Below are positions 136 through 3,856 of a stretch of 4,366 nt of DNA, in pieces. Made by a program: the position numbers and the translations under genes. The stretch's first letter is position 1; the number at the start of each line of letters is the position of its first letter. Source of the DNA: a virus (taxonomy: Duplodnaviria; Heunggongvirae; Uroviricota; Caudoviricetes); the IMG/VR virus record IMGVR_UViG_3300029253_000163. One strand, 5' to 3'. The notes under the pieces are model-generated. The model searched no databases and was not told the DNA's origin. It worked only from the letters and a program-made list of their open reading frames with translations.

Positions 136-320
136 TGCCAGCATCCTTTTTGTATCGGACGTAAACGGGCCAGCATTGAAAGAATGCATATTTTATTTAA
201 TAGCTCCCGTTCGTGTTTTCTCTTGTTAATGGCATCTTCAGTAAATACAGGGTTACTGATAGTGACACCAATTTCAAAACAACCTTCAGANNNNNNNNNN
301 NNNNNNNNNNNNNNNNNNNN
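132..320 (-). CDS. dicB: DicB cell-division inhibitor; start codon and first ~10 codons lie inside the masked N run, so 320 is inferred
   Basis: Minus-strand translation of 290..135 gives SEGCFEIGVTISNPVFTEDAINKRKHERELLNKICILSMLARLRPIQKGCWQ, then TGA at 134..132. I recognise this as the C-terminal 52 aa of the 62-aa DicB. Ten missing N-terminal codons place the ATG near 320. The ORF track's plus-strand ORF 58..372 is its antisense shadow. Confidence 0.85.
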   Translation of the reverse strand, partial: XXXXXXXXXXSEGCFEIGVTISNPVFTEDAINKRKHERELLNKICILSMLARLRPIQKGCWQ

Positions 321-351
321 NNNNNNNNNNNNNNNNNNNNNNNNNNNNNNN
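291..351. other. Masked or unknown bases (61 N); hides the dicB start codon and RBS
   Basis: Run of n in the sequence. Confidence 0.95.
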
Positions 352-487
352 GTGCCTGGTGCCTCCAGGTGACGTTAACCAGTTAACAATTAACGCCGGA
401 TACAGAGAATCCACCCATAACACTGTTTTTGGTTTTAACTGTTCCGCGTGCGCTCAGCCGCATTCACCACATCACAAAATTCACTTT

Positions 488-530
488 AAAAAGGGCGGCA
501 GAGCAGTCACGGAGTAAAACTGATACCGCC
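488..530 (-). terminator. Intrinsic terminator forming the DicF 3' end (GC stem plus U5)
   Basis: On the minus-strand RNA, GGCGG (530..526) and CCGCC (498..494) can pair, followed by UUUUU (492..488). Read-through would be needed for dicB expression. Confidence 0.55.
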
Positions 531-545
531 AAACGTCACCAGAAA
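488..545 (-). ncRNA. dicF: DicF small regulatory RNA (Hfq-dependent antisense sRNA targeting ftsZ and other mRNAs)
   Basis: Minus-strand sequence UUUCUGGUGACGUUUGGCGGUAUCAGUUUUACUCCGUGACUGCUCUGCCGCCCUUUUU matches the DicF sequence as I recall it. It lies between the upstream ORFs and dicB, as in the K-12 dicB operon. Exact 5' end is set by processing and is approximate here. Confidence 0.85.
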
Positions 546-676
546 ATTGATAACAGAGGGCGTTGCAGCGGGGTTGTCACTTAAGCGTATGGTCAACCTG
601 ACAACTCGGTGTCCTCAACGGGGAAGGAATAACCCCGCCATACTTACCGCCGCGCCATTTCGCGGGTTGCCACAAC

Positions 677-744
677 CGGAAGCGCACGGTCGAATTAAAT
701 TTAACGACACCGTACAGTGAGACGAACTTCGCCGTGCGCTTTCG
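677..744. repeat. Long imperfect inverted repeat (about 14-bp arms, 40-nt spacer) in the untranslated leader upstream of dicF
   Basis: Positions 677-690 (ccggaagcgcacggt) pair with 731-744 (gccgtgcgctttcg): 12 Watson-Crick plus 2 G-T/U pairs. Shorter GC hairpins lie nearby at 650-665 (CCGCG/CGCGG) and 621-637 (GGGG/CCCC). Confidence 0.6.
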
Positions 745-820
745 TGTTGTGTGCCTGCTTTTAACCACGTCAGGCGAGGTGGTATCCTTCTTATCCCGAA
801 TAACCAAGAAGGAAATCTAT

Positions 821-1021
821 ATGACTAAAGAAGAATTTGTCTCTTATATTTTTGATAAAACGGTTGAAATGTATGCCGCTACTTACGGGTCCTGTAATCC
901 TCTGAATAAACCAGAGGGGAAAGATGATTTCGACAAAATTTACCGCTTCTTGGAGGACCGCTATATCAAAAGGTTAGAGGACGCAGGGATCAAATCCCCA
1001 GTGAAGTCACCATTGTCCTGA
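821..1021 (+). CDS. Hypothetical 66-aa hydrophilic protein encoded antisense to the dicB operon
   Basis: ATG at 821 preceded by AAGGA (7-nt spacing); the ORF track's 734 start is an upstream alternative-start extension. Translation MTKEEFVSYIFDKTVEMYAATYGSCNPLNKPEGKDDFDKIYRFLEDRYIKRLEDAGIKSPVKSPLS. Overlaps the 3' end of the convergent 121-aa ORF by 32 nt. No homolog recognised and no clear promoter found. Confidence 0.4.
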   Translation: MTKEEFVSYIFDKTVEMYAATYGSCNPLNKPEGKDDFDKIYRFLEDRYIKRLEDAGIKSPVKSPLS

Positions 1022-2910: not shown

Positions 2911-3856
2911 ACGCCCACTGGTTATAAACACGCAGCTGGCAATGAAAATCGGCTTAAACGAAGCCATTGTTTTGCAACAACTGCACTACTGGTTGAGAGA
3001 TACCAACTCCGGTATGGAATGTGATGGTGTTCGCTGGATTTATAACACAACGGAACAATGGCTGGAACAGTTCCCATTCTGGTCAGAGTCAACGTTAAAG
3101 CGCGCGTTTGCAAGTCTGAAAACGCTGGGGCTTTTGCGTTGTGAAAAGCTCAATAAATCAAAGCGCGATATGACCAATTTCTACACGATCAACTATGGGA
3201 GCGAGCTTTTAGATGGTGGCAAATTGAACGAATCCATCGGTTCAAAATGCGCCGCTCCATCAGGTCAAAATGACACGATGGAAGAGGTCAAAATGAAACG
3301 CTCCATTGGTTCAAAACGATCCAATGTCATCGGGTCAAAATGGCCTGATGATCTTACAGAGAATACAACAGAGATTACTACAGAGAATAAAAACACTTTT
3401 CGTCCGGAAGCTTCGCAACCGGACCCGCAGACGACTGAACAGGATTTTTTAACCCGGAACTCCGACGCGGTTGTGTTTAGTGCGAAAAAACGCCAGTGGG
3501 GTAGCAGGGAGGATTTGGCGTGTGCGCAGTGGATCTGGGGGCGGATCGTGGGTCTCTACGAACAGGCAGCCAGTGATGATGGCGAGATCATGCGACCAAA
3601 AGAGCCTAACTGGACTGCCTGGGCCAATGACGTGCGCACAATGCGGATGCTGGATGGCAGAAGCCACAGACAAATTTGCGAAATGTTTGGTCGGGTTCAG
3701 CGAGATCCATTCTGGGTAAAAAACATCATGAGCCCGTCAAAGCTCCGCGAAAAATGGGACGAACTGGTCATCCGCCTGGGACGTTCACCTGTACAGCGTT
3801 GTGTTAATCATATTTCTGAACCGGATACAGAAATTCCGCCTGGTTTCAGAGGATAA
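2891..3856 (+). CDS. Phage replication initiator (O-like): N-terminal winged-HTH domain, iteron-encoded linker, C-terminal domain
   Basis: ATG at 2891 (the track's 2837 start is TTG), overlapping the upstream gene by 20 nt. The N-terminal segment LVINTQLAMKIGLNEAIVLQQLHYWL...FPFWSESTLKRAFASLKTLGLL has the pattern of phage replication-initiator HTH domains. Five iterons sit inside the gene, as in lambda O. Family assignment is by recall. Confidence 0.8.
   Translation: MSLLFAERPLVINTQLAMKIGLNEAIVLQQLHYWLRDTNSGMECDGVRWIYNTTEQWLEQFPFWSESTLKRAFASLKTLGLLRCEKLNKSKRDMTNFYTINYGSELLDGGKLNESIGSKCAAPSGQNDTMEEVKMKRSIGSKRSNVIGSKWPDDLTENTTEITTENKNTFRPEASQPDPQTTEQDFLTRNSDAVVFSAKKRQWGSREDLACAQWIWGRIVGLYEQAASDDGEIMRPKEPNWTAWANDVRTMRMLDGRSHRQICEMFGRVQRDPFWVKNIMSPSKLREKWDELVIRLGRSPVQRCVNHISEPDTEIPPGFRG
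3233..3342 (+). repeat. Origin-like iteron array: five direct repeats (core GGT(T)CAAAAYG) at about 23-bp spacing inside the replication gene
   Basis: tccatcggttcaaaatg (3233-3249), tccatcaggtcaaaatg (3256-3272), gaagaggtcaaaatg (3281-3295), tccattggttcaaaacg (3302-3318), gtcatcgggtcaaaatg (3326-3342). They are followed by an A-rich stretch with three ACAGAGA(A/T)T copies (3355-3388). Confidence 0.7.

What the first reader, a model, noticed from the sequence alone, without database searches (positions are those of the whole stretch)
546..820. Structured, apparently untranslated leader upstream of dicF with a 14-bp long-range stem
About 275 nt of the operon transcript upstream of DicF has no convincing sense-strand ORF (only a TTG-start, Arg-rich 76-aa frame with no SD). 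It contains a 677-690/731-744 stem of 12 Watson-Crick plus 2 G-U pairs and further GC hairpins at 650-665 and 621-637. DicF is known to be cut out of a polycistronic precursor by RNase III and RNase E, so these stems are candidate processing determinants. On the plus strand the long stem is followed by TTTCGTGTTGTGTG, so it could also act as a weak terminator for antisense transcription.
Basis: partly seen in the sequence, partly recalled or inferred. Interest (0 to 1): 0.45.

Follow-up and report, generated by a model that had tools for sequence, protein, structure and literature searches.

The report
Conserved structured RNA upstream of DicF
The untranslated stretch in front of the phage small RNA DicF is a real folded RNA: a long double-stranded stem that matches the known RNase III cutting site, followed by a 115-base four-helix knot that many phages keep in their early operons and whose job has not been described.

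Summary
The features exist and are not chance. The window is a Qin-like prophage with its early-left operon on the minus strand (DicF at 544-493).

1. On the dicF strand its two "G-U" pairs are A-C mismatches. Relatives keep the duplex, some with different sequences. The published RNase III-dependent 190-nt DicF precursor should begin near 682, inside it. This part is already known biology.

2. The two small hairpins are helices P1 and P2 of a 115-nt domain (676-562): closing helix P0, P1, P4, P2, P3 and a loop pseudoknot. Covariation supports it (17 of 36 pairs changed on both sides; shuffles 6.2±1.5). No Rfam 15 family matches.

3. The domain occurs once per element in 61 phage records (lambdoid, Stx, P1/P7, one Actinobacillus phage) and 511 plasmids. 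It lies in the repressor-controlled early operon, and a terminator hairpin follows in all but one subtype. Here that hairpin is DicF.

4. GUUGUG is shared by the long stem and P0, so RNase III cleavage is predicted to let the domain close.

No reading frame is conserved. The proposed antisense terminator is not supported. The domain's own function is unknown; a role in cis on transcription is my leading guess.

The parts
728..751 (-). 5' arm of the long duplex. CACAAC (751-746), unpaired A745, CG (744-743), A742 mismatched, AAGCGCACGG (741-732), CGAA (731-728).
   Evidence: MFE folds (pair probabilities 0.84-1.0 in the precursor). RNAalifold on an unfitted MAFFT alignment of 20 relatives recovers 18 of the pairs. 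Duplex scan across the family.
695..727 (-). Apical part of the long hairpin. It is hypervariable in sequence and length between relatives.
   Evidence: Alignments. At least five unrelated apical sequences sit between conserved arms.
671..694 (-). 3' arm of the long duplex: UUCG, bulged A690, CCGUGCGCUU, C679, CG, GUUGUG. The inferred RNase III cut that makes the 190-nt DicF precursor falls at about 682. GUUGUG (676-671) is also the 5' strand of P0.
   Evidence: The cleavage position is inferred from the published 190-nt size, the K-12 alignment and the K-12 model coordinates. It was not mapped in this window.
562..676 (-). Conserved 115-nt domain.
- P0: 676-669 with 569-562.
- P1: 665-661 with 654-650.
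- P4: 649-646 with 610-607.
- Pseudoknot: GUAUGG 643-638 with CCAUAC 592-587.
- P2: 637-633 with 623-619.
- P3: 606-599 with 579-572, closing a 19-nt loop (598-580) that varies at only about three positions in the sample.
   Evidence: Covariance model R1 scores 141.6 bits here. Covariation counts on the fitted alignment and on an unfitted MAFFT alignment. RNAfold of the 190-nt species gives P0, P1, P4, P2 and P3 with no input from the alignments.
534..561 (-). Linker plus the first bases of DicF. Hairpin 555-548 (UGUUAUCA) with 541-534 (UGGUGACG). Its AU-rich loop 547-542 holds the DicF 5' end at 545, the RNase E product end. In the precursor the DicF 5' seed is paired.
   Evidence: Folds. The RNase E dependence of the 53-nt 5' end comes from PMC10448788.
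493..545 (-). DicF sRNA, whose 3' half is the intrinsic terminator that follows the domain.
   Evidence: Rfam RF00039, 544-493, 76.7 bits, E=2.5e-16. The K-12 annotation is 53 nt.
752..820 (-). Spacer carrying two local hairpins (776-757 and 815-781). Only 752-762 is shared with other DicF loci. The rest is specific to this prophage type and is antisense to the 5' leader and Shine-Dalgarno sequence of a predicted plus-strand ORF.
   Evidence: The PGAP annotation of the near-identical E. coli strain 142 is.

Best explanation
Window about 762-546 (minus strand) is the non-coding 5' part of the DicF precursor RNA. It is a conserved three-piece module.

(a) A 22-bp imperfect duplex (751-728 with 694-671) is the RNase III site that gives the known 190-nt DicF species.

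(b) A 115-nt domain (676-562) is built from a closing helix P0, three further helices around a junction, an extra hairpin and a loop pseudoknot.

(c) A short hairpin (555-534) presents the RNase E site in its loop and keeps the DicF seed paired.

Proposed order of events:
1. While the operon RNA is being made, the long duplex forms first and holds GUUGUG.
2. RNase III cuts near 682. The upstream piece leaves, and GUUGUG pairs with GCUGCAAC (569-562) to close the domain.
3. The compact 190-nt RNA now has a 5' monophosphate. RNase E cuts it in the AU loop at 546/545 and releases the 53-nt DicF.

Status of the steps:
- Shown here: the structures, their conservation and covariation, and that the two pairings of GUUGUG exclude each other.
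- Taken from the literature: the dependence on RNase III and RNase E, and the 190-nt and 53-nt sizes.
- Inferred: the refolding step and its role in guiding RNase E.

The domain is not specific to DicF. In every member examined, a repressor-controlled early promoter lies upstream of an RNA of roughly 165-195 nt made of domain, linker and terminator. The domain therefore probably has a further function of its own, still unknown, most likely acting on transcription through the terminator that follows it.
For: - Orientation and identity: DicF at 544-493(-). DicA-like repressor, DUF1391 gene, dicB and ydfD lie in the same order as in Qin.
- Long duplex: MFE and pair probabilities. Energy -36.8 kcal/mol against -19.4±3.3 for shuffles. 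RNAalifold on an unfitted alignment finds 18 pairs, 3 with changes on both sides and several C-to-U changes opposite G. L166 turns the A742-C679 mismatch into G-C. The cdtI, L141, L195, L204, L214 and L253 types have different arm sequences but the same duplex ending in GUUGUGG.
- RNase III link: PMC10448788 reports that the 190-nt species is lost in an rnc mutant, accumulates in rne-ts, and is mapped by primer extension. 190 nt back from the K-12 DicF end is 6 nt 5' of P0, which is window about 682.
- Domain: the covariance model gives one hit in each of 98 of 100 loci. 97.5% of cells are paired, and 17 of 36 pairs change on both sides against 6.2±1.5 in shuffles, 0 of 500. On an unfitted MAFFT alignment, 12 of 31 pairs against 4.8±1.4.
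- Strand: 177 G-U against 42 A-C cells in the domain. For the long stem and its upstream flank (108 nt ending at P0), the sense strand is the more stable in 66 of 80 family members.
- Switch: P0 probability is 0.00 in the precursor. P0 is in the MFE of the 190-nt RNA, with probability about 0.25.
- P1 control: the unit starts about 28 nt after the Pban start site and has no transcribed RNase III stem. The primary transcript there already looks like the processed form.
Against: - The exact cut site was not visible in the text I could read. It rests on the 190-nt size, with an uncertainty of a few nt.
- P0 has only about 0.25 probability in the 190-nt ensemble.
- P4 and the pseudoknot each rest on one position that changes on both sides. 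Each change is probably a single event, in P7-like and P1-like lineages respectively, plus a few G-U intermediates.
- In this particular window the plus strand folds slightly better (-44.2 against -43.4 kcal/mol for the stem region; z -4.43 against -2.29 overall).
- The loci were collected with patterns that required either DicF or the P3-loop motif, so the near-invariance of that loop is partly built in.
- Nothing here shows that the domain is needed for DicF production. Plasmid-borne dicF alone is functional (PMC6582626).
- Strong conservation in phages that have no DicF argues that processing cannot be the domain's only role.
Confidence: 0.72

Rival explanations
1. The 115-nt domain is a cis-acting antiterminator RNA that works like HK022 put or Bacillus EAR. 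It would fold on the nascent transcript, stay with RNA polymerase, and let it read through the intrinsic terminator that follows (here DicF) and through later terminators. This would replace an N protein for the early-left operon. It is compatible with the processing module above and would add a function to it.
For: - The domain always lies in a repressor-controlled early operon, upstream of the operon's genes and of a canonical terminator.
- In phages cdtI and Ayreon, the promoter, about 280 nt of leader, the domain and the terminator all precede every early-left gene, and no N-like gene is found.
- In P1 it sits between Pban and a strong terminator (GCCCAUC-UUCG-GGUGGGC followed by U6), ahead of the tRNA genes, tciABC and ban.
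- Its size, pseudoknot and near-invariant loops are typical of an RNA that binds a conserved host machine. Hosts range from Escherichia to Actinobacillus.
- In K-12, dicB is expressed from dicBp through the DicF terminator in a prophage that lacks most phage functions (literature).
- The domain shares short motifs with putL: GCGCGGCGG, UCAGGNUGA and ACCAUGCG.
Against: - No functional data exist.
- There is one copy per phage, whereas nut and put sites come in left and right pairs.
- The model finds nothing in HK022. The architecture differs from put's two stem-loops, and the shared motifs occur in a different order and may be chance.
- A leaky terminator would explain downstream expression without any antiterminator.
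- In the window and in K-12 the domain lies about 0.9 kb downstream of the promoter, after two or three ORFs.
Confidence: 0.25
2. The product that matters is the free RNA of about 135-190 nt, cut out or terminated at both ends. It would be a stable phage non-coding RNA that acts in trans by binding or mimicking a host component. DicF would be an add-on found in one subfamily.
For: - Every member yields a discrete unit. In P1 it runs from promoter to terminator, about 180 nt. In lambdoid members it runs from the RNase III stem to the terminator. In L183 and L204 the domain lies between two long duplexes with no nearby terminator.
- The linker ("seed") differs or is nearly absent between subfamilies (cdtI type), while the domain is constant.
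- The 190-nt species accumulates in vivo.
Against: - No target or partner is known.
- The domain shows no similarity to tRNA (ARAGORN) or to YrlA, 6S or any other Rfam family.
- The stability of the domain fragment left after RNase E cleavage is unknown.
Confidence: 0.15
3. The domain is a ligand-sensing aptamer (a riboswitch-type attenuator) that sets the efficiency of the terminator behind it.
For: - The layout is that of a riboswitch: a conserved, pseudoknotted junction RNA, then a variable linker, then an intrinsic terminator, all in a 5' leader.
- In the precursor fold, GCGGCGGUAAGU of the domain can pair with the 3' arm of the DicF terminator.
Against: - That alternative pairing is not shared across the family. 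The P1 terminator is unrelated.
- The linker is long and variable.
- No downstream gene set suggests a ligand.
- No Rfam riboswitch matches.
Confidence: 0.06
4. The structure belongs to the plus strand, as a 5' leader or terminator of an antisense transcript that feeds the predicted 66-aa ORF at 821-1021.
For: In this window the plus strand folds better (z -4.43 against -2.29). The two non-Watson-Crick positions of the stem are G-U on the plus strand. PGAP annotates a plus-strand ORF that starts at 821.
Against: - Across the family, G-U outnumbers A-C 177 to 42 on the dicF strand, and the sense strand is more stable in 66 of 80 members.
- The P0 wobble pairs (GUUGUGGC with GCUGCAAC) would be C-A mismatches on the plus strand.
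- The module is conserved in K-12, cdtI and P1, none of which has the plus-strand ORF.
- No promoter or terminator is found by the scan.
Confidence: 0.03
5. The region encodes a small protein: the 76-aa TTG frame, which matches phrog_8854.
For: The frame matches phrog_8854 at E=2e-27.
Against: - The frame has no Shine-Dalgarno sequence and a TTG start.
- No frame is consistently open in 182 relatives.
- Length changes of 1, 2, 4 and 5 nt occur in P2.
- Substitutions are compensatory for RNA pairing.
- The PHROG is most simply explained as repeated ORF calls on a conserved RNA. Pfam finds nothing.
Confidence: 0.02

Closest known systems
[quoted passage not shown] 1990; Ragunathan et al. 2023, PMC10448788)
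   Same: It is the same locus type. From about window 692 down to DicF the sequence is nearly identical to K-12. The long stem explains the RNase III-dependent 190-nt species, and the linker loop holds the RNase E-dependent 5' end.
   Different: The papers I could read describe sizes and nucleases. They do not describe the duplex, the 115-nt domain, its pseudoknot, the shared GUUGUG strand, or its presence in phages without DicF. The upstream genes also differ here: there is no ydfB or ydfC, and a 121-aa gene plus an antisense ORF take their place.
HK022 putL/putR antiterminator RNAs (PMC9378689)
   Same: Both are structured RNA in the early operon of a lambdoid phage without N, upstream of terminators. 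A few short motifs are shared.
   Different: put is about 70 nt with two stem-loops and a triplex, and occurs in both early operons. This domain is 115 nt, with helices P0, P1, P4/P2 and P3 around a junction plus a pseudoknot, and occurs once per phage. The model has no hit in HK022. No antitermination has been shown.
Lambda PL leader (nutL plus the RNase III-sensitive N-leader hairpin); from general knowledge
   Same: Both are early-left leaders that contain a long RNase III hairpin and an RNA element acting on the transcript.
   Different: No boxA/boxB pattern was seen by eye in the cdtI leader and no N-like gene was found. Here the RNase III hairpin lies upstream of the element and shares a strand with it.
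EAR (eps-associated RNA) of Bacillus; from general knowledge
   Same: Both are pseudoknotted, conserved RNAs of about 120 nt lying inside an operon.
   Different: The sequence, hosts and context are unrelated. EAR function is experimentally shown, and this domain's is not.
Leader-derived phage RNAs C4 (P1/P7) and CI (P4), Rfam RF01695
   Same: Both are small RNAs cut out of the leader of a phage operon by host nucleases.
   Different: There is no similarity. RF01695 hits a different place in phage cdtI and not this domain. [quoted passage not shown]
P1 'dicF-like region' (misc_feature 68791-68892 in AF234172)
   Same: It overlaps the 3' half of the P1 copy of this domain and its terminator. 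The sequence similarity had therefore been noticed.
   Different: It is annotated only as a similarity to dicF. No structure, family or function is given.

Membership tests
DicF RNA (Rfam RF00039) | Match to the 52-nt covariance model at or above the gathering score of 48 bits. | tested here: met
   544-493(-), 76.7 bits. The model covers only DicF. None of 546-820 is part of it.
RNase III processing site | About two helical turns (20 bp or more) of mostly uninterrupted double-stranded RNA. | tested here: met
   22 pairs in segments of 6+2+10+4 separated by one-base defects. The duplex is conserved with compensatory changes.
RNase III processing site | An rnc-dependent RNA end mapped inside the duplex. 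| not testable with these tools
   The literature reports a 190-nt species lost in an rnc mutant, with its 5' end mapped by primer extension in K-12. By size it falls at about window 682. It has not been measured for this prophage type.
HK022 put antiterminator RNA | Sequence and structure homology to putL/putR: two stem-loops, about 70 nt. | tested here: not met
   The model has no hit in HK022. BLAST of putL against all loci finds only HK022 itself. The architecture is different.
HK022 put antiterminator RNA | One copy in each early operon (left and right). | tested here: not met
   Exactly one hit per locus. The loci generally extend several kb to either side of the hit, and where annotation was checked they include the immunity region.
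HK022 put antiterminator RNA | Factor-independent suppression of terminators through binding to the RNA polymerase beta-prime zinc-binding domain. | not testable with these tools
   This needs in vitro transcription or rpoC mutants.
Lambda-type nut site | boxA (CGCUCUUA-like) followed by a boxB hairpin, with an N-family protein encoded downstream. | tested here: not met
   Neither the window nor the cdtI leader shows such a pattern by eye. The first genes downstream are PHROG families of unknown function or Kil, not N.
Transcriptional riboswitch or attenuator | A conserved aptamer whose 3' strand competes with the terminator through a conserved alternative pairing. | tested here: inconclusive
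   The conservation is aptamer-like. An alternative pairing with the DicF terminator exists in this window, but the P1 terminator is unrelated.
tRNA or tRNA-like element | Cloverleaf recognised by tRNA search tools. | tested here: not met
   ARAGORN finds nothing in the window. Rfam tRNA, tmRNA and YrlA do not hit the domain.
Any curated RNA family (Rfam 15) | A cmscan match to the domain at E of 1 or less. | tested here: not met
   There is no hit on window 562-676, P1 L131 2493-2599, cdtI L132 2501-2615 or Actinobacillus phage L133 2486-2604.

The most novel reading that the evidence does not exclude
The 115-nt junction-and-pseudoknot domain is a new class of cis-acting RNA that makes RNA polymerase resistant to terminators, working like put or EAR. 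It would supply N-independent antitermination to the early-left operons of a large group of lambdoid and Stx phages and to the ban operon of P1/P7. The DicF hairpin would be the first terminator it overrides, and RNase III cleavage of the flanking duplex would be the step that lets the domain close.
Probability: 0.25. Interest if true: 0.85.

Novelty: new variant of a known kind. Interest (0 to 1): 0.58.

Why it matters
DicF is one of the oldest known bacterial small RNAs and is present in most E. coli genomes (4558 of 5426 complete genomes match this region). Its precursor has so far been described only by sizes and nucleases.

This analysis gives the 190-nt precursor a concrete structure that can be tested. 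It explains where RNase III acts and predicts a refolding step triggered by cleavage.

It also shows that the leader is a conserved RNA domain shared with the P1 ban leader and with the early-left leaders of lambdoid phages that have no N protein, including Stx-converting phages. If the domain controls read-through of the terminator behind it, it would be a third kind of phage RNA antiterminator. It would also explain how these phages express early-left genes such as dicB, kil, recombination functions and int/xis.

Separately, phage annotations that call a "hypothetical protein" over this region (phrog_8854) are probably wrong.

Tried and rejected
- Rfam at E of 1 or less, on the window and on the P1, cdtI and Actinobacillus copies: only DicF and sub-threshold STnc100-like hits downstream. 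Nothing on the domain.
- ARAGORN: no tRNA-like call.
- Promoter and terminator scan of 400-1700: no terminator on either strand, and only one weak promoter-like site, inside the plus-strand ORF.
- P2-loop pairing. The loop is pyrimidine-rich (UCCUU/CUCC) and the following junction is GAGGA. I looked for a conserved pairing between them. Some subtypes fit and others do not (L167, L179, L181), so I dropped it.
- CCA-like 3' tail after P0: not conserved.
- boxB-like reading of CCCUGAAAAG upstream of the K-12-type stem: the motif is absent from this window type, so I dropped it.
- Homology to HK022 putL: only short shared motifs, in a different order, and no BLAST or model hit. I keep it as a lead only.
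- Antiterminator pairing between the domain's GGCGGUA and the terminator: present here but not in P1.
- Literature. Faubladier & Bouché 1994 (PMC205167) and the P1 genome paper (PMC523184) are not held. Full-text searches for a named motif in the ydfC-dicF region found nothing. The transcriptome-wide RNase III papers cite DicF only as an example.
- The single genome-contig scan returned only 8 loci. The metagenome scan was not used.

Full report
**Context**

The window is a Qin/mEp460-like lambdoid prophage segment.
- Rfam places DicF at 544-493 on the minus strand (76.7 bits).
- On the same strand lie a DicA-like repressor (2097-1690), a DUF1391/YdfA-like gene (1575-1384) and a 121-aa gene (to 990). 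dicB and ydfD lie downstream in the near-identical E. coli strain 142.
- The finding (546-820) is therefore RNA of the early-left (dicBF-type) operon, just upstream of DicF.
- PGAP also annotates a plus-strand 66-aa ORF at 821-1021. The sense-strand untranslated stretch therefore runs from 989 to DicF.

**Observation check**

The stem 677-690/731-744 and the hairpins at 650-665 and about 619-637 are present. Three corrections are needed.
- The two "G-U" pairs are G-U only on the plus strand. On the dicF strand they are A-C: A742-C679 is an internal mismatch, and A690 is bulged.
- The duplex is longer than described: 751-746:671-676, 744-743:677-678, 741-732:680-689 and 731-728:691-694, 22 pairs in all.
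- TTTCGTGTTGTGTG is part of the stem and not a tail. No terminator-like site is found there on either strand.

The duplex is stronger than chance: -36.8 kcal/mol against -19.4±3.3 for shuffled partners. In this window the plus strand folds slightly better. Across the family the sense strand is more stable in 66 of 80 distinct sequences for the stem region, and G-U outnumbers A-C 177 to 42 in the domain's pairs. The RNA structure therefore belongs to the dicF strand.

**No coding frame**
- The 76-aa TTG frame hits phrog_8854.
- No frame is consistently open in 182 relatives.
- The P2 segment varies between 25 and 31 nt.
- Pfam finds nothing, and the substitutions are compensatory for RNA pairing.
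- The PHROG is most simply explained as ORF calls made on a conserved RNA.

**The long stem and RNase III**
- K-12 is nearly identical from about window 692 to DicF, partly conserved to about 762 and unrelated beyond.
- Ragunathan et al. 2023 (PMC10448788) confirm Faubladier et al. 1990. A 190-nt DicF species is lost in an rnc mutant and accumulates when RNase E is inactivated. The 53-nt form needs RNase E. The 190-nt 5' end was mapped by primer extension within the sequence that spans the apical loop and the 3' arm.
- Counting 190 nt back from the annotated K-12 3' end gives a position 6 nt 5' of the domain. That is window about 682, inside the perfect 10-bp segment.
- An unfitted MAFFT/RNAalifold analysis of 20 relatives recovers 18 of the pairs. 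Three pairs change on both sides, and several C-to-U changes lie opposite G.
- One relative (L166) converts the A-C mismatch to G-C. The cdtI, L141, L195, L204, L214 and L253 types have different arm sequences but keep a duplex of -25 to -47 kcal/mol that ends in GUUGUGG.
- The apical 33 nt are hypervariable.

**The domain**

A distant BLAST search showed that about 100-125 nt just upstream of DicF recur in phages that have no DicF. These are cdtI, Ayreon, Stx2c phages, 2H10, an Actinobacillus phage, and P1/P7, where part of the region is annotated "dicF-like region".

I collected 255 loci and parsed 104 distinct variants. They give a 115-nt model at window 676-562:
- P0: GUUGUGGC with GCUGCAAC.
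- P4: CGGU with ACCG.
- P3: GGUUGUCA with UGACAACC, closing a 19-nt loop that varies at only about three positions in the sample.
- A pseudoknot between GUAUGG, which follows P4, and CCAUAC in the P3 loop.

Evidence for the model:
- A covariance model built from 15 sequences hits once in each of 98 of 100 loci. The window scores 141.6 bits. There is no hit in HK022 or in a Salmonella DicF locus that lacks the domain.
- On the resulting alignment, 97.5% of cells pair. 17 of 36 pairs change on both sides, against 6.2±1.5 in shuffles (0 of 500) and 0-4 in slid controls.
- On an unfitted MAFFT alignment, without P2, 12 of 31 pairs change on both sides against 4.8±1.4.
- RNAfold of the 190-nt RNA alone returns P0, P1, P4, P2 and P3.

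Caveats:
- P4 and the pseudoknot each rest on one doubly changed position, in P7-like and P1-like lineages, plus G-U intermediates.
- The collecting patterns required DicF or the P3-loop motif, which inflates the apparent invariance of that loop.

**Family context**
- The domain is found in 61 phage records and 511 plasmids, mostly P1-like, one copy each.
- It always lies in the repressor-controlled early operon. In P1 it starts about 28 nt after the Pban start site. In cdtI and Ayreon it starts about 280 nt after the promoter that follows cI. In the Actinobacillus phage it follows dicA and precedes kil.
- In almost all types, 10-30 variable nt and then an intrinsic terminator follow, usually starting UUUGGCGG. 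Here that is DicF itself.
- L183 and L204 have a second long duplex in place of the terminator.
- In cdtI and Ayreon the terminator precedes every early-left gene, and no N-like protein is found.
- In P1 the apparent "long stem" is the C1 operator palindrome, which lies upstream of the start site. The P1 primary transcript therefore already resembles the RNase III-processed 190-nt form.

**Mechanism**

Shown here:
- GUUGUG (676-671) belongs both to the long duplex and to P0.
- In the precursor the long duplex has pair probabilities of about 1 and P0 has 0. In the 190-nt RNA, P0 is in the MFE, with probability about 0.25.
- The linker forms a hairpin (555-534) whose AU loop holds the DicF 5' end and whose stem covers the DicF seed.

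Inferred:
- RNase III cleavage releases GUUGUG, the domain closes, and the 5'-monophosphorylated compact RNA is cut by RNase E in that loop. This frees DicF and unmasks its seed.

The domain is kept in phages without DicF, so it probably has a function of its own. My leading guess (about 0.25) is action in cis on RNA polymerase at the terminator that follows, in the manner of put or EAR. Alternatives are a free trans-acting RNA (about 0.15) and a ligand-sensing attenuator (about 0.06).

**Comparison with known systems**
- The stem and the nuclease pathway are already known for Qin.
- The domain fails the membership tests for put (no homology, a single copy, a different architecture), nut (no boxA/boxB, no N), tRNA-like RNAs and every Rfam 15 family.
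- Short motifs shared with putL (GCGCGGCGG, UCAGGNUGA, ACCAUGCG) occur in a different order and remain only a lead.
- I could not read Faubladier & Bouché 1994 or the P1 genome paper. Either may mention the sequence similarity.

**Verdict**

Noticed in passing
window 821-1021 (+), with 781-816: PGAP annotates a 66-aa plus-strand ORF (WP_000159335.1, phrog_34441). It is antisense to the operon and overlaps the 3' end of the 121-aa gene by 32 nt. On a plus-strand transcript its Shine-Dalgarno sequence AAGAAGGA (809-816) could be sequestered by CCTTCTT (785-791). All copies found are about 99% identical, so coding could not be tested.
   Followed up: partly
window 352-467 (-); L133 2758-2942; L131 3842-3961: Sub-threshold matches to Rfam STnc100 (28.8, 39.1 and 33.4 bits; gathering score 47). 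In the window and in the Actinobacillus phage they lie just downstream of the terminator and before dicB or kil. In P1 the match lies about 1.2 kb further downstream. This may be a second conserved RNA piece of the same operon, and it may contain the reported 3' RNase III site that gives the 72-nt DicF.
   Followed up: no
window 752-788 (-); second copies in L018, L034, L035, L045, L115 and L130: A 37-nt piece just upstream of the long stem recurs, 100% identical, 0.2-1 kb upstream of the module in other DicF loci. AAAAGCAGGCACACAAC here resembles AAAAGUCAGGGCAUAAC in K-12-type loci. It looks like a repeated joint at which ydfC-type gene cassettes are exchanged.
   Followed up: partly
window 646-657 and 493-505 (-): GCGGCGGUAAGU in the domain resembles the 5' arm of the DicF terminator (GGCGGUAUCAG). 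In the precursor MFE it pairs with the terminator's 3' arm. This is a possible antiterminator pairing, but the P1 terminator is unrelated, so it is not family-wide.
   Followed up: partly
L005 (Salmonella enterica) 3639-3815: This Salmonella DicF locus has DicF and a match to window 734-789, but only about 74 nt lie between them. The 115-nt domain is absent and the covariance model finds no hit. DicF can therefore exist without the domain.
   Followed up: no
window 291-351 and 1414-1431: Runs of N (masked sequence) interrupt the dicB region and the DUF1391-like gene.
   Followed up: no
window 580-807 (-); phage records: Several phage genomes annotate "hypothetical protein" ORFs across the conserved RNA, on either strand, and phrog_8854 groups one set of them. 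These are probably spurious gene calls.
   Followed up: partly
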